Of a DNA stretch of 64,000 nucleotides, positions 3,876 through 57,678 are shown piece by piece. The notes beneath the pieces were generated by a model, which saw only the letters and a program-made list of their open reading frames with translations, ran no database searches and was not told the origin of the DNA. This stretch comes from a virus (taxonomy: Duplodnaviria > Heunggongvirae > Uroviricota > Caudoviricetes), in the IMG/VR virus record IMGVR_UViG_2576861193_000002. The stretch is one strand, 5' to 3'. Within the stretch, counting starts at the first letter, position 1, and every line of letters begins with the position of its first letter. Made by a program: the position numbers and the translations under genes.

Positions 3876-3957
3876 GATAGCGCCCGATGCGCAAGCGTAT
3901 CGGGCTACTCTTATGGAGGCCGGATAAGACGCGGCCAGCGTCGCATCCGGCAATCCC
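3876..3957. repeat. REP/BIME-type extragenic palindromes between convergent ttcA and dbpA
   Basis: GCCGGATAAGACGCGGCCAGCGTCGCATCCGGC-type imperfect palindromes. Confidence 0.5.
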
Positions 3958-3999
3958 GAATAAGATGTTTACTCTTGCACCCGGCAATTCAACATTTCA

Positions 4000-5373
4000 T
4001 TATTTTAATAACCGCACCCGGCACGTTTTTCCTTTAATCTTCCCGCCCTGTAACTGTTTCCATGCTTTATGAGCAACAGCCTGACGGACCGCGACATAGA
4101 CATGCGCCGGATGCACGGCGATTTTGCCAATATCTGCGCCATCAAGCCCGATATCTCCTGTCAGTGCACCTAATACATCACCCGGGCGCATTTTGGCTTT
4201 TTTCCCGCCATCGATACACAACGTTGCCATTTCTGCTTCCAGCGTCGCAATGGAACTATTAGCTGGCGGCGTTTGCCAGTTAAGTTTTATCTGCAACATG
4301 TCAGAAATGATATTGGCCCGCTGTGCTTCTTCCGGAGCACAGAAACTGATCGCCAGACCGCTATTTCCTGCACGAGCTGTACGACCGATGCGATGTACAT
4401 GAACTTCAGGGTCCCACGCCAGCTCAAAGTTCACCACCAGCTCAAGCGATTTAATATCCAGACCACGCGCAGCAACATCAGTCGCGACCAGTACACGGGC
4501 GCTACCGTTAGCAAAACGTACCAGGGTCTGATCGCGATCGCGTTGCTCCAAATCGCCGTGTAATGACAATGCACTTTGCCCTACTTCATTCAGCGCGTCG
4601 CAGACAGCCTGGCAATCTTTTTTGGTATTGCAAAACACCACGCAAGAGGATGGCTGATGCAAGCTTAATAACCGTTGCAACAGAGGAATTTTGCCTTTGC
4701 TGGATGTCTCATAAAATTGTTGTTCAATGGGTGGCAAAGCATCTGTTGAGTCAATTTCAATCGCCAAAGGATCGCGTTGCACTCGTCCGCTGATTGCAGC
4801 GATGGCTTCCGGCCAGGTTGCCGAAAACAGAAGCGTCTGTCGAGATGCAGGCGCAAAACGGATGACATCATCAATGGCATCGCTAAATCCCATATCCAGC
4901 ATGCGGTCGGCCTCATCCATCACCAGCGTATTCAACGCATCCAGTGATACCGTGCCTTTTTGCAGGTGATCCAGCAAACGCCCCGGCGTTGCCACGATAA
5001 TATGCGGCGCATGTTGCAACGAATCACGCTGCATACCGAACGGTTGACCACCGCACAACGTCAAAATTTTGGTATTTGGCAGAAAACGCGCCAGCCGACG
5101 CAATTCACCTGCCACCTGATCCGCCAGTTCACGCGTAGGACACAGCACTAAAGCCTGGGTTTGAAATAGCGACGCATCAATTTGCTGTAACAAGCCGAGG
5201 CCAAAAGCCGCCGTTTTGCCGCTGCCGGTTTTCGCCTGCACGCGAACATCTTTTCCGGCAAGGATCGCCGGAAGCGCGGCGGCCTGCACCGGCGTCATGG
5301 TTAAATAACCCAACTCATTAAGGTTCGTGAGTTGGGCGGGAGGCAAAACATTCAGGGTAGAAAAAGCGGTCAC
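4000..5373 (-). CDS. dbpA: ATP-dependent RNA helicase DbpA (DEAD-box)
   Basis: 457 aa; Walker A AKTGSGKT, DEAD box VMDEAD, SAT, HRIGRTAR motifs. Confidence 0.92.
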   Translation of the reverse strand: MTAFSTLNVLPPAQLTNLNELGYLTMTPVQAAALPAILAGKDVRVQAKTGSGKTAAFGLGLLQQIDASLFQTQALVLCPTRELADQVAGELRRLARFLPNTKILTLCGGQPFGMQRDSLQHAPHIIVATPGRLLDHLQKGTVSLDALNTLVMDEADRMLDMGFSDAIDDVIRFAPASRQTLLFSATWPEAIAAISGRVQRDPLAIEIDSTDALPPIEQQFYETSSKGKIPLLQRLLSLHQPSSCVVFCNTKKDCQAVCDALNEVGQSALSLHGDLEQRDRDQTLVRFANGSARVLVATDVAARGLDIKSLELVVNFELAWDPEVHVHRIGRTARAGNSGLAISFCAPEEAQRANIISDMLQIKLNWQTPPANSSIATLEAEMATLCIDGGKKAKMRPGDVLGALTGDIGLDGADIGKIAVHPAHVYVAVRQAVAHKAWKQLQGGKIKGKTCRVRLLK

Positions 5374-52071: not shown

Positions 52072-52317
52072 ATGTATTACGTTCGCAAGGCTTTTGATAT
52101 TCGCCTGAATAACAATGATCATGTGCAAAAACTCATCTTAATTGCACTGGCAACAAAGGCCGGATGCAACGGCAAAAGCGAAGTAACGCCGGAAGAAATC
52201 GCTGAAATGTGCGAAATTCCGTTACGTGACACTATCTCTGCACTGCATCAACTGAAAAGAAGCGGCCTAATCAGTCAGCTGCCAGGTTTCTTCTGTGTTT
52301 ATAAGTTAATGTTTTAG
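52072..52317 (+). CDS. winged-helix DNA-binding protein (early regulator)
   Basis: 81 aa; AGGAGA RBS; first gene of rightward operon. Confidence 0.5.
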   Translation: MYYVRKAFDIRLNNNDHVQKLILIALATKAGCNGKSEVTPEEIAEMCEIPLRDTISALHQLKRSGLISQLPGFFCVYKLMF

Positions 52318-52323
52318 TTCGTC

Positions 52324-53325
52324 ATGAGGTTAATGCTTATGAGTATGCGGCTAATGGTAGAAGTCTTCCATACTGAGGTCGGCAACCCAATGCACAAACT
52401 GGTGCTGTTAAAGTTGGCTGATAACGCTAACGATAACGGAGAGTGTTACCCTTCTTACCAGCACATAGCGAAGCAATGCGAAATAAACAAAAGCACGGCA
52501 ATGAGAGCAATCGAGGCTCTTTGCAAAAAAGGTTTGTTACTAAAACAGCCTCGATATTTAATCGGAGGGAAAGAACAAACGAGCAATTTCTATGTAATCG
52601 TTTTACCTTCACTGTCAGGTAGTGGCACAAAGCAACCGGGGGTAGTGGCAGAGAGCAACCAGGGTAGTGGCACAAAGCAACCGGGGGTAGTGGCAGAGAG
52701 CAACCCTAATCAGTCATATATAACCAGTAAAGAGAACATTAAAGATATACCCCCTTGTATCCCCCCAGAAGAAAAACATGTCAATCAGGATGGCGTAAAC
52801 GAAGCGGCATTGCGTTGCCTTGCCTTCTACAACGACAAGGCAGGATGCAAATATCGTGATGCAAAACCATTCATCGAACTACTGACAGAAACAAAAACAC
52901 GTAAAGCGTATACGGAGGATGAGATCACATTAGTGATTGAGTGGGCTTTAACTCAATGGCGTAACCGTGGTGGAACACCTAAGCCTATCAACATTTGCAG
53001 GGTAACTAAGTTTGATGGGTATCTTGCTGATGCTGAACAATGGCGCAAGCTGTCAGCCACTGCAAACGCTGCCGACGTAGTGGAAGCATTTAACAGCACG
53101 TTTGATGGCCTGTTGCCACCTACTGAACTGGATCGGGATCTTGAACGAAAGATCTATGCGTTCACTGACTACCTGAAAGACAAAAGCATTAACGGCTTTG
53201 TCGCCTACTTCGAAACGTTCAAAAACACGGCTTCAGATTTTTACTTAGGCAATGGCTTTACTGCGACACTTGATTTCCTGCTTAAACCAAAAACGCTACG
53301 TGATACACGCGCTGGCGCTCTTTGA
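52324..53325 (+). CDS. replication initiator O-like protein
   Basis: 333 aa; N-terminal winged-helix; internal linker encoded by iteron repeats. Confidence 0.6.
   Translation: MRLMLMSMRLMVEVFHTEVGNPMHKLVLLKLADNANDNGECYPSYQHIAKQCEINKSTAMRAIEALCKKGLLLKQPRYLIGGKEQTSNFYVIVLPSLSGSGTKQPGVVAESNQGSGTKQPGVVAESNPNQSYITSKENIKDIPPCIPPEEKHVNQDGVNEAALRCLAFYNDKAGCKYRDAKPFIELLTETKTRKAYTEDEITLVIEWALTQWRNRGGTPKPINICRVTKFDGYLADAEQWRKLSATANAADVVEAFNSTFDGLLPPTELDRDLERKIYAFTDYLKDKSINGFVAYFETFKNTASDFYLGNGFTATLDFLLKPKTLRDTRAGAL
52619..52705. repeat. four ~19-bp iterons inside O-like gene (candidate origin)
   Basis: GTAGTGGCA(CAA/GAG)AGCAACC four times at 22-23 bp spacing; coordinates approximate. Confidence 0.5.
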
Positions 53326-53678: not shown

Positions 53679-55760
53679 TTGATTGTATATATGCAAAAGC
53701 AAATTACTAAATACGAGGTATTAATGATGTCTAGATATTTTGTATCGATAAGAGGAAGTAAATTTTTTGCAAAAATTGATGAAGGAATGGTGTTTATGCG
53801 GAAGCGTAAATATCAAACGTGGGATCGTTGTGGTAAAAAAAGCGAGTTTGTACGCGCGGTGGCCGGTGGCTATTGGAAGGAAATAACAGCGGCGGAAGCT
53901 GGCGATTTTAAGTACGCTGATTGCAGCCAGTGCGCGGAGAACTGGCCTGAATTATTTGATTATCATCCTGATGGGTATCTGATTAGCAAGGTTAAGCGGG
54001 GTACGGGAAAGAGTTTAATTAAACCTGGCGGTATAATTCGCGGAACAGTAAGTTCTCAGGGAAATTTATATATTGGTATAAATGGTCATTATTATCAATT
54101 ATCTCGCGTAGTATATGAAATGTTTAACGGCCCTATTCCTGATGGTTACGTGATAAAGAATGATAATAAGTCATGCACAAAAATAGAAAACCTGAAATTA
54201 ATATCACGGAACGGAAAAATAACAAAGCATAATGTTATTGGTAAAAGCGGAATCAGAGGTGTTTATTGGAATAAGAAAAATAATAAATGGATGGCAAATG
54301 TTAGTTACGATTATTTAGGTTGTTTCGATAATATCAACGACGCAATAAACGCGTGTATCATGGGTGAAATTAAACGTTACGGCAGGCAAATGAACCACTT
54401 CCCTGATTATATCTCACCAGAGGAAGAGGAGCGCATTAAACAGCGTTATTATGAAGGTGACGAAATGAAACAGATCAAAATTAACACTAAACCTCCTGAA
54501 CCTGAATTTAAATACAACACATTCAGGTTTAAAAAGCGCGATATTAGAATCAACGGAAACAATTATATAAGCCTGGTAGATCTATTCCGGGCGATGGGTG
54601 GAAGTAGTAGCGAGCAGTTCAGGCAGCAGATCGACAAATTCGAAGATGTTCCGGTGTTTGATTATTTCCTTAACCGTGGCGAGGACTACGAAGACGAATA
54701 CTTTGCACCTCCGTTAATGGCGCAAATGTTCGTACAGCGGTTGGGCAACGCTTGCGACGGCGTGGAACTGCTTAACACTTACATTGCATATTGCAACGTC
54801 ATGGCGGCAGCAGATGACCAGGCTGATAGCGGGCAGGTGGAAGACCTGAAAGGCCAAGTGAAAGCGGCTTGCGGCAAGATCAAGGAACTGGAACAGGAGA
54901 ACAGGGAAAAACAATCGACTATCGATCAAATCACTCGAGATAAAGCGCAAGCAACGTTGTACGACCTCAATAGCTATTACCGAAAATATATCGACGAGTG
55001 CGCTGAACGCATGAGGGTTGAACATCAACGCGACAACATGGAGGGGCAGATCAGCGAATTGCAGGGACTGCTTAACGTGGCAAGAGAGGATCGCAATAAC
55101 TATCAAGATCGGGCGAACTACTGGAACCATCAATATAACCAGGCAAATAAAGCATTTGGGGAGGAACAGGATAAACGCCAGAAATTAGAAAGAGAAAACG
55201 ACAACCTGGTAAAAACTAATTGCGAACTACGCCAAAAACTCAACGCTGCAAATGACGAAGACGCAAAAGCGAAAGCTGCGGCAGACAAACAAACAATCAA
55301 CGACCTTCGCGCAGATCTGGAGGAAGCAAAAGAAACAATCAATGCGCAACAACAGGAGGCACGCAACAAGGCTCTGGCTATCAAGGGATATCAGCTTAAA
55401 GTGGCAGAACTTGAGGACGATAAACGGGAACTGCAAAACAATCTGAATATCTTGCAAACTGGTCATAATATCCTGCTGGATCGCTACAACAAGCTAACTG
55501 CTCGCAACATGCGCCGCCGCGCAGCACAAAAACGGTATATGGGTGATCTGCACAATAACCACGTAACTGATACGCTTGAGTGGATGCAGGCAATAAAAGG
55601 TGCTGGCGACTATTACAAACAACGCCAACAGCGCAACCAGGAGCGTTATCGTAAGCTGATAATGGCATTGCAAGACAAAGTAAAAGAATTGCTGTACCGC
55701 CTCGATAAAAAGCCAGAAGGCGGATTCTTTAGCAAGGTTAAAGGTTTATTTAACCATTGA
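53679..55760 (+). CDS. multidomain protein: degenerate HNH-AP2 module + KilA-N/Bro-N-like domain + ~300-aa coiled coil
   Basis: 693 aa; AP2-like SGIRGVYWNKKNNKWMANVSY; HNH His positions replaced; FRFKKRDIRINGNNYISLVDLFRAMGG; heptad-rich C-terminus; start uncertain. Confidence 0.55.
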   Translation: MIVYMQKQITKYEVLMMSRYFVSIRGSKFFAKIDEGMVFMRKRKYQTWDRCGKKSEFVRAVAGGYWKEITAAEAGDFKYADCSQCAENWPELFDYHPDGYLISKVKRGTGKSLIKPGGIIRGTVSSQGNLYIGINGHYYQLSRVVYEMFNGPIPDGYVIKNDNKSCTKIENLKLISRNGKITKHNVIGKSGIRGVYWNKKNNKWMANVSYDYLGCFDNINDAINACIMGEIKRYGRQMNHFPDYISPEEEERIKQRYYEGDEMKQIKINTKPPEPEFKYNTFRFKKRDIRINGNNYISLVDLFRAMGGSSSEQFRQQIDKFEDVPVFDYFLNRGEDYEDEYFAPPLMAQMFVQRLGNACDGVELLNTYIAYCNVMAAADDQADSGQVEDLKGQVKAACGKIKELEQENREKQSTIDQITRDKAQATLYDLNSYYRKYIDECAERMRVEHQRDNMEGQISELQGLLNVAREDRNNYQDRANYWNHQYNQANKAFGEEQDKRQKLERENDNLVKTNCELRQKLNAANDEDAKAKAAADKQTINDLRADLEEAKETINAQQQEARNKALAIKGYQLKVAELEDDKRELQNNLNILQTGHNILLDRYNKLTARNMRRRAAQKRYMGDLHNNHVTDTLEWMQAIKGAGDYYKQRQQRNQERYRKLIMALQDKVKELLYRLDKKPEGGFFSKVKGLFNH

Positions 55761-55841: not shown

Positions 55842-56525
55842 ATGAGTGACTTAATGGTTTTTGATGCTGTTAAGATGAATAGTCTTGAAATTGCAGAATT
55901 AACGGGAAGTGATCACAAGGATATTAAACGGAGTATTTACAGACTGATTAAGAAGGGAATAATTCAAAATTCGCCAATGGCGAAAGTTGAGAATAAACAA
56001 TCACTTAGCCCTAATAGATTTTCTGATGTTTACGTCTTTGAGGGCGAGCAAGGAAAACGAGATAGTATCATTGTCGTTGCTCAAAACTGCCCTGAATTTA
56101 CGGCGCGGCTTGTTGATCGCTGGCAGGAACTTGAAAAACGGGTACAGCAAAACTCTCCTGCAATTCCTCAAACATTAAGCGAAGCGTTGCGCCTTGCTGC
56201 CGATCTTGCTGAGGAAAAGGAACGGCTTGCGCTGGTTAATAAGGAACTTGCGCCAAAAGCGGCTGTATGTGACGCGATAGTCAAAAACGATATGCACCGC
56301 ACGGCTTCAGAGGTAGCTAAACCGCTGGGAATGTCAGCCGTAAAATTAAACAGAAAACTTTCGGCTGTTGGTGTTTACGATCTTCGCTGTCGCCGCCGTG
56401 TATTCAGTCAGTGGTTTATTGATGAGGGGTACGGTGAAATGAGGGTAACTCACGATGGATATGAGCAGGCTGTATTCACTGCTAAAGGACAAGTATGGAT
56501 CACTGAGCTTTTAACTTGTAACTAA
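55842..56525 (+). CDS. antirepressor-like protein (Rha/Ant N-terminal + KilAC-like C-terminal)
   Basis: 227 aa; domain architecture typical of phage antirepressors. Confidence 0.6.
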   Translation: MSDLMVFDAVKMNSLEIAELTGSDHKDIKRSIYRLIKKGIIQNSPMAKVENKQSLSPNRFSDVYVFEGEQGKRDSIIVVAQNCPEFTARLVDRWQELEKRVQQNSPAIPQTLSEALRLAADLAEEKERLALVNKELAPKAAVCDAIVKNDMHRTASEVAKPLGMSAVKLNRKLSAVGVYDLRCRRRVFSQWFIDEGYGEMRVTHDGYEQAVFTAKGQVWITELLTCN

Positions 56526-56559
56526 GTATACAATTTGTTATTCGCGAGGAAATGACACT

Positions 56560-57678
56560 ATGTCACAAAGAAAGATCAGCGATGAACAGCTAATCGCTGA
56601 ATATAACAACGGTTTAACGTACAAGCAGATCGCTGAAAAATATGGCATGTCAAAACGCAACGTCGAACGCCTGGGCGCAAAACTGGCGAAACGCGGTTTA
56701 TTATCAACGCGCCGCGCTCCTGGTTTTGGTGTCAATGGCGAGTCGTTGCTAGTCGATAAGAACGGCAATGTGATCATGCGTTGGATTAAAACAGCCCGTG
56801 ACCGCGACGAAATGGAACAGTTAATGGAAGCGGCCCGCGACGCTTTCACGGATGAAATACCACGCGCGGAGGCTGTGCCAGTGCCTGAAATTGATTTTCA
56901 AAAAAGCCTGGCCCTTTATCCGGTGTTTGATCTGCATATCGGGGCTCTTGCCCATAAAGCTGAATGCGGTGAGAGCTACGACACTGGGATCGCTGAACGC
57001 GTGCTAAATAACTTCTTTGATTATGCTGTTGGCGCTGCTCCTATGAGTGAAAAAGCAGTCTTACTTCTCGGTGGCGACCTGCTTCACACTGACGGATTGT
57101 TACCAGTGACGCCATCAAGCAATCACGTTCTTGATTGCGATTCGCGCTACGCAAAACTTGTTTATGTGGCGATCCGGTCTGTCCGGCGGGCGGTCGGAAA
57201 GATGTTGCTAAATCATAAGGATGTGGAAATCCAGGTGTTATCAGGGAATCATGACCAGTCTGGTATGATTTGGCTACGTGCGGCGCTGGCGGCTTTTTAC
57301 GAAGATGAACCGCGCGTGACGGTTGATGTGTCACCTGCTATTGTCCACCACACACAGTACGGCAAAACATTCCTTGCTTACCACCACGGGCACACTATCA
57401 AAAAGCCGGAAAATTTATTGTCTGCTTGCGTCTCTGACTGGCGGGAAGACTTTGGCAAGTCTGCTGCGGTTTACGCTCATTGCGGGCACTGGCACCATCA
57501 ACGGCTAATCGAATCATCGTTAGGCGTTGTTGAGTATCACGGCACGTTAGCGGGTAAAGACGCTTACTCAACTAATGGCGGCTGGCGGTCGCGGCGTCTG
57601 GCAGCGGTTATTATTTACAGCCAGGATCATGGGGAGATCGGGCGCTTTGTTTATTACCCTGAATTTTCCATTTTGTAA
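56560..57678 (+). CDS. calcineurin-like metallophosphoesterase with N-terminal HTH
   Basis: 372 aa; FDLHIG, GGDLLHTD, GNHD, GHWHH motifs; N-terminal LTYKQIAEKYGMSKRNVERL. Confidence 0.55.
   Translation: MSQRKISDEQLIAEYNNGLTYKQIAEKYGMSKRNVERLGAKLAKRGLLSTRRAPGFGVNGESLLVDKNGNVIMRWIKTARDRDEMEQLMEAARDAFTDEIPRAEAVPVPEIDFQKSLALYPVFDLHIGALAHKAECGESYDTGIAERVLNNFFDYAVGAAPMSEKAVLLLGGDLLHTDGLLPVTPSSNHVLDCDSRYAKLVYVAIRSVRRAVGKMLLNHKDVEIQVLSGNHDQSGMIWLRAALAAFYEDEPRVTVDVSPAIVHHTQYGKTFLAYHHGHTIKKPENLLSACVSDWREDFGKSAAVYAHCGHWHHQRLIESSLGVVEYHGTLAGKDAYSTNGGWRSRRLAAVIIYSQDHGEIGRFVYYPEFSIL

What the first reader, a model, noticed from the sequence alone, without database searches (positions are those of the whole stretch)
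56560..57678. HTH-fused calcineurin-like metallophosphoesterase in the replication operon
Motifs D-x-H, GD, GNHD and GHxH sit behind an N-terminal HTH, immediately upstream of the DnaB-type helicase. This is not the lambda NinI-type phosphatase and may have a replication-associated or anti-defence role.
Basis: partly seen in the sequence, partly recalled or inferred. Interest (0 to 1): 0.4.

Follow-up and report, generated by a model that had tools for sequence, protein, structure and literature searches.

The report
Phage HTH-fused Mre11-like phosphoesterase
This prophage gene encodes a DNA-binding domain fused to a probably active Mre11/SbcD-like metal-dependent phosphoesterase; it belongs to a very large phage family (phage T1 has an orthologue) that databases already label "DNA repair exonuclease" but nobody has tested, so it is real but ordinary.

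Summary
ORF 56560-57678 (+, 372 aa) has a basic N-terminal helix-turn-helix (aa 8-44). Behind it is a complete metallophosphoesterase (MPE) core: D124-L-H-I-G, G172-D-L-L-H176, G229-N-H-D, H276, G309-H-W-H312. dnaB starts 18 nt downstream.

The catalytic residues are 94-100% conserved in 150 diverse relatives. Two AlphaFold models (pLDDT 83 and 88) match the MPE fold. Mre11/SbcD and PolD-DP1 are the only PDB families shared by both top lists. Motif II (GDLLH) is the same variant as in T. maritima Mre11. Lambda NinI is unrelated.

The gene is not new:
- It is phrog_704 "DNA repair exonuclease" (E 5e-139).
- It is 97.8% identical to mEp554 gene 11 and 57% identical to phage T1 CPTT1_064.
- It occurs in 2,037 of 50,697 phage records.
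- It is persistent in 508 of 522 Drexlerviridae.

Adjacency to DnaB is specific to the mEpimmI prophage lineage. Elsewhere the gene lies beside NinB/NinG, PNK, RecE-like, primase, polymerase or lysis genes, and never beside Rad50/SbcC.

Most likely it is a DNA-tethered Mn-dependent nuclease for phage DNA processing. That function is inferred, not shown. A host-DNA-degrading anti-defence role, as shown for mycobacteriophage Gp48, is the main rival. Interest is low to moderate.

The parts
56546..56551 (+). Shine-Dalgarno sequence GAGGAA, 8 nt upstream of the ATG
   Evidence: Read directly from the sequence.
56560..57678 (+). Complete ORF, 372 aa: HTH-fused metallophosphoesterase, a member of phrog_704
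   Evidence: ORF listing. phrog_704 E 5.2e-139 over aa 4-368. 97.8% identical to mEp554_11. 57% identical to T1 CPTT1_064.
56581..56691 (+). N-terminal tri-helical helix-turn-helix, aa 8-44 (basic; LuxR / sigma-70 region 4-like)
   Evidence: AF2 helices at 8-16, 21-27 and 32-44. Weak Pfam HTH hits that are stronger in relatives. Profile hits to RhlR, GerE and FixJ HTH domains at E 0.1-1.7. Net charge +7 over aa 1-57.
56713..56730 (+). Flexible linker, aa 52-57
   Evidence: pLDDT below 50.
56737..56850 (+). Conserved beta-hairpin (aa 60-77, with invariant W75) plus helix (aa 79-97) preceding the catalytic core
   Evidence: AF2 secondary structure. W75 invariant and K77 at least 90% conserved. 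Retained even in the few relatives that lack the HTH.
56905..57654 (+). Metallophosphoesterase catalytic core, aa 116-365
   Evidence: AF2 model mostly above pLDDT 90. Foldseek hits to Mre11, PolD-DP1 and other MPEs, probability 1.00.
56929..56943 (+). Motif I, D124-L-H126-I-G128
   Evidence: Invariant. D 149/149 and H 150/150 in representatives.
57073..57087 (+). Motif II, G172-D173-L-L-H176 (the Mre11-type GDLxH variant)
   Evidence: Invariant. Aligns to T. maritima Mre11 'GDLLH'. H176 is 146/151 in representatives.
57124..57147 (+). Family-specific conserved loop, H189-x-L-D192-x-D194-S-R196, between motifs II and III
   Evidence: D192, D194 and R196 invariant, H189 at least 90% conserved. 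141-145 of 151 in representatives. Function unknown; a candidate substrate-binding loop (inference).
57244..57255 (+). Motif III, G229-N230-H231-D232
   Evidence: G, N and H invariant. N and H 149/149.
57385..57387 (+). Motif IV, H276
   Evidence: Invariant. 149/149.
57484..57495 (+). Motifs V/VI, G309-H310-W-H312
   Evidence: Invariant. H310 142/149 and H312 148/149.
57697..59112 (+). Context: DnaB-type replicative helicase, 18 nt downstream and probably co-transcribed
   Evidence: PF03796 E 1.3e-75 and PF00772 E 8e-12. At +1 in 20 of 20 mEpimmI-lineage loci. No + strand terminator-like site between the genes.

Best explanation
The gene encodes a catalytically competent enzyme with a two-metal (probably Mn2+) phosphodiesterase centre. 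Structurally it is closest to the Mre11/SbcD and PolD-DP1 nuclease branch of the MPE superfamily. A basic N-terminal helix-turn-helix is joined to it by a flexible linker.

The most likely mechanism is as follows. The HTH tethers the enzyme to double-stranded DNA. The MPE core then cleaves DNA phosphodiester bonds at ends, nicks or secondary structures. It works alone, without a Rad50/SbcC ATPase, and serves phage DNA replication and recombination by processing ends or intermediates. In this mEpimmI-type prophage it is transcribed with the O-like initiator and the DnaB helicase from the early rightward operon.

Shown here: the fold, the intact active site, the conserved fusion architecture, the operon position, and membership of phrog_704. 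Inferred: DNA as the substrate, the metal identity, and the biological role.
For: - **Active site.** All six MPE motifs are invariant or nearly so across the family.
- **Fold.** Two independent AF2 models, of proteins 32% identical, have pLDDT 83 and 88. Both put Mre11/SbcD and PolD-DP1 in their top Foldseek lists, and Mre11 has the best target-normalised TM-scores in the second search (0.41-0.47). The other top families change between the models.
- **Motif II.** GDLLH is the same variant as in T. maritima Mre11.
- **Independent curation.** The phage T1 record annotates the 57%-identical orthologue as 'exonuclease, HHpred 99% to E. coli SbcD 4LTY'.
- **Architecture.** An N-terminal module of at least 45 aa is present in 144 of 151 sequences. 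It is net basic in 69% of them, and it is more variable than the core (0.37 against 0.53). A DNA-binding domain fused to a phosphodiesterase points to DNA as the substrate.
- **Neighbours in independent lineages are DNA-metabolism genes.** These include DnaB, NinB with NinG/Rap, a RecE-like exonuclease, PNK phosphatase with a kinase, Dam methylase, primase-helicase, DNA polymerase A and RecT.
- **Core status.** The gene is persistent in 508 of 522 Drexlerviridae (PMC13164509), as expected for a basic DNA-metabolism function.
- **Precedent.** A stand-alone phage MPE, mycobacteriophage A10ZJ24 Gp48, has DNase activity in vitro that depends on the motif residues (PMC12287305).
Against: - No biochemical or genetic data on any member of this family were found.
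- Foldseek E-values (5e-7 to 1e-5) separate Mre11/DP1 from non-nuclease MPEs by only about one order of magnitude. The non-nuclease hits include Vps29, GpdQ, LpxH and purple acid phosphatase. In the second model a purple acid phosphatase ranks first by E-value.
- The protein lacks the Mre11 capping domain and has no Rad50/SbcC partner.
- It matches no SbcD or Mre11 sequence model in NCBIfam or Pfam.
- The gene context is not fixed. In Kagunavirus the gene lies among tail genes next to an Imm-like gene.
- In some phages it sits beside nucleotide kinases, which could point instead to nucleotide metabolism.
Confidence: 0.5

Rival explanations
1. Host-takeover or anti-defence DNase. Like mycobacteriophage A10ZJ24 Gp48, the enzyme attacks host chromosomal DNA early in lytic growth. 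This shuts down host gene expression, including the induction of defence genes, and releases nucleotides.
For: - Gp48 is a stand-alone phage MPE with non-specific DNase activity. It is toxic to the host and is needed to overcome M. tuberculosis defences (PMC12287305).
- Its relative D29 gp66 also sits immediately upstream of a DnaB-like gene.
- In N4-like phages the homologue lies among early and middle genes.
- Downstream PNK and dNMP-kinase genes fit nucleotide salvage.
- The family is overwhelmingly phage-borne.
Against: - The Gp48/gp66 clade is a different family: phrog_547, no HTH, motif II GDISS, and hhalign E 0.03 with probability 1.5%.
- The gene is a persistent core gene in Drexlerviridae, not a variable accessory gene, and it sits at the end of the operon just before the lysis genes.
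- It also occurs in temperate phages.
- PADLOC gives no hit. PADLOC models defence proteins, not anti-defence proteins, so this says little.
Confidence: 0.2
2. Small-molecule phosphodiesterase. The enzyme hydrolyses nucleotides or cyclic nucleotides, for example 2',3'-cNMP as reported for D29 Gp66, cAMP, or cyclic-oligonucleotide immune signals. The HTH serves regulation or localisation.
For: - Non-nuclease MPEs are also significant Foldseek hits: GpdQ, LpxH, SMPDL3A, purple acid phosphatase and 5'-nucleotidase.
- D29 Gp66 is cited as a 2',3'-cyclic nucleotide phosphodiesterase (reference quoted in PMC9038960).
- Neighbours include nucleotide-metabolism genes: dNMP kinase, dATP/dGTP diphosphohydrolase and thymidylate synthase.
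Against: - A conserved DNA-binding fusion (144 of 151 sequences) has no obvious use for a soluble small-molecule enzyme.
- Motif II is the Mre11 type.
- Only the nuclease families recur in both fold searches.
Confidence: 0.15
3. Nucleic-acid end-healing enzyme. It acts as a 3'-phosphatase or 2',3'-cyclic phosphodiesterase on broken RNA or DNA ends, working with the adjacent polynucleotide kinase/phosphatase to repair damage inflicted by host nucleases.
For: - A HAD-type PNKP phosphatase (PF25109, phrog_415) and a P-loop kinase (phrog_139) lie at +1 and +2 in 21 loci across several lineages.
- The same triad is described in Pantoea phage AAS23 and across Drexlerviridae.
- From general knowledge, not tested here: bacterial Pnkp uses an MPE-fold phosphoesterase domain for end healing.
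Against: - The PNK pair is absent from the window prophage and from most other lineages, including T1, where PNK is encoded far away.
- No RNA ligase was seen nearby.
- The linkage may simply reflect shared ancestry within the T1-like phages.
Confidence: 0.1
4. Protein Ser/Thr phosphatase of the lambda NinI (PPP) type, or a transcription factor whose enzyme domain is inactive.
For: - In Pseudomonas and Microbulbifer prophages the gene occupies a nin-region position after NinB and NinG, where lambda carries NinI.
- NCBI labels one close relative an 'Rrf2 family transcriptional regulator'.
Against: - hhalign against NinI gives probability 0.15%.
- The protein lacks the GDxxDRG motif, and no PPP phosphatase appears in either Foldseek top 50.
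- All catalytic residues are invariant, so the domain is not degenerate.
- The Rrf2 hit is sub-threshold (19 bits against a cut-off of 30) and covers only the HTH.
Confidence: 0.04

Closest known systems
phrog_704 'DNA repair exonuclease', e.g. phage T1 CPTT1_064 (Orf16), mEp554_11, Klebsiella phage KP36 gp63 and Pantoea phage AAS23 gp38
   Same: It is the same family and the same architecture over the full length. phrog_704 E 5e-139. 97.8% identical to mEp554_11. 57% identical to the T1 protein.
   Different: Nothing structural differs. Only the context differs: here and in other mEpimmI prophages the gene is directly upstream of dnaB, whereas in T1-like phages it lies between Dam methylase and the lysis cassette. 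No member has a tested function.
Mre11 / SbcD nucleases (T. maritima Mre11 2Q8U/4NZV, M. jannaschii Mre11 4TUG, E. coli SbcD 6S6V)
   Same: MPE fold with all metal ligands. Motif I is DxH[LI]G and motif II is GDLxH, with the extra histidine. These are the top or near-top Foldseek hits for two divergent family members.
   Different: - No capping domain.
- No Rad50/SbcC partner in any of 103 loci.
- An added N-terminal HTH, beta-hairpin and helix.
- A family-specific HxLDxDSR loop.
- Sequence identity only 12-14%, and no hit to SbcD or Mre11 sequence models.
PolD small subunit DP1 (3'-5' proofreading exonuclease; 5IHE, 8PPT, 9F2A)
   Same: An MPE-fold DNA exonuclease that recurs in both Foldseek top lists. 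Some metagenomic relatives carry the label 'DNA polymerase II small subunit'.
   Different: No OB-fold domain and no DP2 catalytic partner. The phages concerned use host, family-A or N4-type polymerases.
Cluster A mycobacteriophage MPE: A10ZJ24 Gp48 and D29 Gp66 (phrog_547)
   Same: A stand-alone phage MPE with no ATPase partner. Gp48 has shown phosphodiesterase and DNase activity. D29 gene 66 lies immediately upstream of a DnaB-like gene, the same gene order as in the window.
   Different: A different family: about 200 aa, no HTH, motif II GDISS, a clear PF00149 hit at 3e-11, and hhalign against the window family at E 0.03.
Lambda NinI (PPP-type Ser/Thr phosphatase)
   Same: A phage-encoded MPE-superfamily protein. 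In some lambdoid prophages the HTH-MPE occupies a comparable nin-region position.
   Different: No specific similarity (hhalign probability 0.15%). NinI has the PPP motif set and hits PF00149 at 2.6e-17. NinI has no HTH.

Membership tests
Metallophosphoesterase (calcineurin-like) superfamily | Conserved metal-binding motifs DxH / GD / GNH[DE] / H / GHxH in order | tested here: met
   D124xH126, G172D173, G229N230H231D232, H276 and G309H310xH312. Invariant in A1 and 94-100% conserved in 150 representatives.
Metallophosphoesterase (calcineurin-like) superfamily | Beta-alpha-beta-alpha-beta sandwich fold matching solved MPE structures | tested here: met
   AF2 pLDDT 83 and 88. Foldseek gives 101 and 27 PDB hits at E<=1e-3, and all 50 listed in each search are MPE-fold proteins.
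Metallophosphoesterase (calcineurin-like) superfamily | Match to Pfam PF00149 / PF12850 above the gathering score | tested here: not met
   No hit for the window protein at E<=1. Only 12 of 75 relatives touch PF00149, best E 4.4e-4. The family is too divergent for the sequence model, so membership rests on motifs and fold.
phrog_704 (phage 'DNA repair exonuclease') | Full-length profile match | tested here: met
   E 5.2e-139, aa 4-368 against profile positions 2-387 of 390.
Mre11/SbcD nuclease family | Motif II of the GDLFH type, with a catalytic histidine three residues after the aspartate | tested here: met
   GDLLH176. H176 is invariant and aligns with T. maritima Mre11 GDLLH.
Mre11/SbcD nuclease family | Closest structural neighbour among MPEs | tested here: inconclusive
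   Rank 1 for the window model (6x1y, E 5.4e-7) and ranks 2-3 for the second model, where the TM-scores are the best. The margin over other MPE families is only about 10-fold in E-value.
Mre11/SbcD nuclease family | C-terminal capping domain following the nuclease domain | tested here: not met
   The protein ends 7 residues after the last core strand, and the model shows no further domain.
Mre11/SbcD nuclease family | Rad50/SbcC-type ABC ATPase partner encoded alongside | tested here: not met
   No recurrent or large neighbour within 5 genes either side in 103 loci is Rad50/SbcC-like. Those annotated are helicase, primase, polymerase and RecT.
Mre11/SbcD nuclease family | Match to SbcD or Mre11 sequence models (NCBIfam/TIGRFAM) | tested here: not met
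   No such hit at E<=1. The profile against PDB sequences reaches only E 0.35-0.68 for T. maritima Mre11.
Mre11/SbcD nuclease family | Mn2+-dependent exo- and endonuclease activity on DNA | not testable with these tools
   Requires biochemistry.
PPP-type phosphatase (lambda NinI) | GDxxDRG and GNHE motifs, and profile similarity to NinI | tested here: not met
   Motif II is GDLLH and motif III is GNHD. hhalign probability 0.15%. No PPP enzyme appears in either Foldseek top 50.
Cluster A mycobacteriophage MPE (phrog_547; Gp48 / Gp66) | Profile or sequence match to the clade; compact protein of about 200 aa without an N-terminal domain | tested here: not met
   D29 gp66 is phrog_547, not phrog_704. 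hhalign E 0.033, probability 1.5%. The window protein has a 115-aa N-terminal extension.
PolD DP1 | OB-fold plus MPE domain, with a DP2 partner | tested here: not met
   The N-terminal region is an HTH, a hairpin and a helix, not an OB fold. No DP2-like neighbour was found.

The most novel reading that the evidence does not exclude
The HTH-MPE could be a self-sufficient, DNA-tethered nuclease that phages use as a weapon or as a helicase partner. In one version it degrades or nicks host DNA to blunt inducible defences, as Gp48 does in mycobacteriophages. In the other it works physically with the downstream DnaB-type helicase as a nuclease-helicase pair. The second version is suggested by the same MPE-then-DnaB gene order arising independently in mEpimmI coliphages and in Cluster A mycobacteriophages with unrelated MPE families. 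Either way, an Mre11-like core would have replaced Rad50 with an HTH tether. That would assign a function to a family persistent in Drexlerviridae and present in thousands of phages.
Probability: 0.15. Interest if true: 0.6.

Novelty: new member of a known kind. Interest (0 to 1): 0.3.

Why it matters
The family is very common. It occurs in about 4% of sequenced phage records, forms 4,359 clusters at 50% identity, and is persistent in T1-like phages that are widely used in phage therapy and are notorious laboratory contaminants. Even so, it carries only a predicted label.

Showing what a partner-less, HTH-tethered Mre11-like enzyme does would assign a function to thousands of genes. The candidates are end processing for recombination-dependent replication, host DNA degradation, and counter-defence. 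It would also show how the Mre11 catalytic core can work without Rad50.

For this particular window the result is mainly a clean annotation. The gene is an ordinary member of that family in an mEpimmI-type prophage integrated next to a GGDEF-domain gene, which fits the ydaM attachment site reported for this phage group.

Tried and rejected
**Database searches that found nothing useful**
- Pfam, NCBIfam, PADLOC and PDB sequence searches with the single protein gave only sub-threshold HTH hits.
- A family profile against PDB sequences gave only E 0.35-0.68 for T. maritima Mre11.

**Hypotheses tested and rejected**
- DnaB adjacency as a conserved functional linkage. It holds in only 1 of 22 lineages, with one Pseudomonas prophage carrying DnaB at -5.
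- A helicase-loader role. The gene is widespread in phages that have no adjacent DnaB, and the prophage already has an O-like initiator plus a DnaB-type helicase. From general knowledge, that pairing matches phage P22, which needs no separate loader.
- Membership of the NinI family.
- Membership of the Gp48/Gp66 family.
- The 693-aa HNH and coiled-coil neighbour as a Rad50-like partner. It has only HNH and AP2 domains, it is absent from mEp554, and it is unique among 103 loci.

**Literature that gave nothing on this family**
- The mEpimmI paper is silent on this gene.
- The phage Tn-seq preprint and the retron paper have no data on it.
- The T1 genome paper (PMID 14972552) is not held.
- Searches for escape mutants, virion proteomics and T1 host-DNA degradation found nothing specific.

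**Other**
- Promoter and terminator scans did not exceed shuffled expectation.
- Plasmid hits are only 4 records of 44-50 kb, which I take to be phage-like replicons.
Full report
**1. Observation**

The ORF lies exactly where reported: 56560..57678 on the + strand, ATG start, 372 aa. A GAGGAA ribosome-binding site sits 8 nt upstream. The motifs are DLHIG at aa 124, GDLLH at aa 172, GNHD at aa 229, H276 and GHWH at aa 309.

The next gene, 57697..59112, starts 18 nt after the stop codon and is a DnaB-type helicase (PF03796 E 1.3e-75, PF00772 E 8e-12). Upstream on the same strand are:
- a small O-like wHTH ORF (52072-52317);
- an O-like replication initiator (52324-53325);
- an HNH endonuclease with a coiled-coil tail (53679-55760);
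- a Rha/KilAC antirepressor-type gene (55842-56525).

No + strand terminator-like site lies between 55842 and 59112, although the scan as a whole did not exceed shuffled expectation.

**2. Setting**

The region is the right arm of an mEpimmI-type temperate coliphage. The protein is 97.8% identical to gene 11 of phage mEp554, whose gene order is the same: cI, O, antirepressor-like gene, this gene, DnaB, NinB, integrase.

The published description of this phage group reports that type I integrases insert at ydaM (PMC11893012). That fits the integrase at 61570-62784 and the adjacent gene at 63023, whose translation shows GGDEF-type motifs. The paper does not mention the present gene.

Only 35 of 5,426 complete E. 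coli genomes carry the gene at 85% DNA identity or more. PGAP almost always calls it a 'hypothetical protein'.

**3. Is it a metallophosphoesterase?**

Sequence models barely detect it.
- Pfam gives no PF00149 hit for the window protein, and only 12 of 75 relatives graze that model, best E 4.4e-4.
- NCBIfam, PADLOC and PDB sequence searches give nothing beyond weak HTH matches.

Three other lines settle the question.
- All metal-binding and catalytic positions are invariant in a 75-sequence alignment that combines an enteric clade (58-94% identical) with a marine, N4-like clade (about 28% identical). They are 94-100% conserved in 150 representatives drawn from 4,359 clusters at 50% identity.
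- AlphaFold2 gives confident models for the window protein (pLDDT 83) and for a 32%-identical vibriophage-clade member (pLDDT 88). Both have the MPE sandwich.
- Foldseek against the PDB returns only MPE-fold proteins in both top-50 lists, at probabilities of 0.77-1.00.

**4. Which kind of MPE?**

For the window model the best hits are:

| PDB family | Entries | E-value |
|---|---|---|
| T. maritima and M. jannaschii Mre11 | 6x1y, 4nzv, 2q8u, 4tug | 5e-7 to 5e-6 |
| PolD-DP1 proofreading exonuclease | 9f2a | 1.6e-6 |
| Vps29, GpdQ, SMPDL3A, LpxH | various | about 1e-5 |

For the second model a purple acid phosphatase is nominally first (2.5e-6). Mre11 entries follow at 3e-6, and within that search they have the better TM-scores (0.41-0.47, against 0.38-0.40 for the phosphatase). 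After them come DP1, human Mre11, E. coli SbcD and then 5'-nucleotidases. The families common to both lists are Mre11/SbcD and DP1, and both are DNA nucleases.

Two more points agree.
- Motif II is GDLLH, and H176 is invariant. The family profile aligns it to GDLLH of T. maritima Mre11. This is the Mre11 variant, not the GDxxDRG of PPP phosphatases.
- The curators of the phage T1 record annotated the 57%-identical orthologue CPTT1_064 as an exonuclease with 99% HHpred probability to E. coli SbcD.

Lambda NinI shows no specific similarity (hhalign probability 0.15%), yet it hits PF00149 at 2.6e-17.

The protein is still not a member of the Mre11/SbcD family proper. It has no capping domain, it matches no SbcD or Mre11 sequence model, and no Rad50/SbcC partner is found near it in any locus.

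**5. Architecture**

- The N-terminal 57 residues form a tri-helical HTH that is net basic (+7, against -10 for the rest).
- A low-confidence linker follows (aa 52-57).
- Next comes a conserved beta-hairpin with invariant W75, then a helix, then the core.
- An N-terminal module of at least 45 aa is present in 144 of 151 sequences. It is less conserved than the core (0.37 against 0.53) and positively charged in 69% of cases.
- Its sub-threshold sequence matches are to sigma-70 region 4, LuxR/GerE, LysR and Fis-type HTH domains.
- A family-specific conserved loop, H189-x-L-D192-x-D194-S-R196, lies between motifs II and III. Its role is unknown.

**6. Distribution and context**

The protein belongs to phrog_704 'DNA repair exonuclease' (E 5e-139). 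tblastn finds it in 2,037 of 50,697 phage records. These include T1-like Drexlerviridae, Klebsiella Webervirus, Guernseyvirinae, N4-like vibriophages and roseophages, and Campylobacter and Flavobacterium phages.

I collected 103 loci and grouped them into 22 lineages at 70% identity. DnaB is at +1 only in the mEpimmI lineage (20 of 20 loci) and at -5 in one Pseudomonas prophage. Elsewhere the context is as follows.

| Phage group | Neighbours of the gene |
|---|---|
| Pseudomonas and Microbulbifer prophages | follows NinB and NinG/Rap |
| Webervirus-type phages | precedes a HAD-type PNK phosphatase and a P-loop kinase |
| Other siphoviruses | follows a RecE-like exonuclease |
| T1-like phages | between Dam methylase and the lysis cassette |
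| Kagunavirus | in a small island among tail genes, next to an Imm-like gene |
| N4-like phages | among early and middle genes |

The large neighbours I annotated are SF2 helicases, a primase-helicase, DNA polymerase A, a primase and a RecT-like annealase. The common theme is the DNA replication, recombination and nucleotide-metabolism module, with no fixed partner.

A recent pangenome study found the 'DNA repair exonuclease' module persistent in 508 of 522 Drexlerviridae (PMC13164509). In that family it behaves as a core gene.

**7. Function**

I found no experimental work on any member of this family.

The nearest characterised analogue is the stand-alone MPE of Cluster A mycobacteriophages.
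- A10ZJ24 Gp48 is expressed early.
- It has motif-dependent phosphodiesterase and non-specific DNase activity.
- It fragments host DNA and is required to overcome M. tuberculosis defences (PMC12287305).
- Its relative D29 Gp66 is cited as a 2',3'-cyclic nucleotide phosphodiesterase.
- D29 gene 66 lies immediately upstream of the DnaB-like gene 65, the same order as in the window.

The two MPEs are nevertheless different families: phrog_547 against phrog_704, no HTH in Gp66, and hhalign E 0.03.

Putting the anatomy together, I consider a DNA-tethered, Rad50-independent, Mn-dependent nuclease that serves phage DNA processing the most likely function (about 0.5). The supporting features are a DNA-binding tether, an intact Mre11-like active site, core status in T1-like phages and DNA-metabolism neighbours.

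The rivals are:
- a Gp48-like host-DNA or anti-defence DNase (about 0.2);
- a nucleotide or cyclic-nucleotide phosphodiesterase (about 0.15);
- an end-healing enzyme working with PNK (about 0.1).

A NinI-like protein phosphatase, or a regulator with a dead enzyme domain, is essentially excluded.

**8. Verdict**

The gene is, however, an ordinary and nearly identical member of a very large phage family that is already catalogued and predicted to be SbcD-like. Its position next to dnaB is a lineage-specific arrangement. Its interest lies in the family being abundant and untested, not in this particular copy.

Noticed in passing
window 53679-55760 (+): A 693-aa ORF with HNH_3 and AP2 domains and a coiled-coil tail of about 400 aa, with only weak JetC-like matches. 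It is unique among 103 related loci and absent from the same position in mEp554. It is probably a mobile homing-endonuclease-type insertion in the replication operon.
   Followed up: partly
window 52618-52705, inside the O-like gene 52324-53325: A perfect 45-bp direct repeat in 2 copies, which also reads as a 23-bp unit in 3.9 copies. It encodes the duplicated peptide GSGTKQPGVVAESN. These are probably origin iterons lying within the initiator gene, as in lambda O.
   Followed up: partly
window 52072-52317 (+): An 81-aa ORF that looks like a stand-alone N-terminal wHTH of a replication initiator (phrog_4617, E 8e-9). It sits directly upstream of the full-length O-like gene and is conserved in 18 mEpimmI loci.
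   Followed up: no
window 59156-59716 (+): A 186-aa ORF immediately after dnaB, conserved in 19 mEpimmI loci. It has no significant hit in Pfam, PHROGs, NCBIfam or PADLOC.
   Followed up: no
L107 (mycobacteriophage D29) 3883-5355, minus strand: Phosphoesterase gp66 lies immediately upstream of the DnaB-like gp65, the same MPE-then-DnaB order as in the window. The two MPEs belong to different families, so this is either convergence or coincidence.
   Followed up: partly
window 61570-62784 (-) and 63023-63952 (+): A tyrosine integrase sits at the right prophage end, next to a gene whose translation shows GGDEF-type motifs. This fits the ydaM attachment site reported for mEpimmI phages with type I integrases.
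   Followed up: partly
Pantoea phage AAS23 gp38 (literature): A family member, described as 70% identical to KP36 gp63, was detected by LC-MS/MS in purified virions (PMC8004638). It could be packaged with the virion or be a contaminant.
   Followed up: no
L079 7168-8324; cluster 10 (21 loci, 5 lineages) and cluster 8 (21 loci, 3 lineages): A split polynucleotide kinase/phosphatase, made of a HAD PNKP phosphatase and a P-loop kinase, lies directly downstream of the HTH-MPE gene in Webervirus-type phages.
   Followed up: partly
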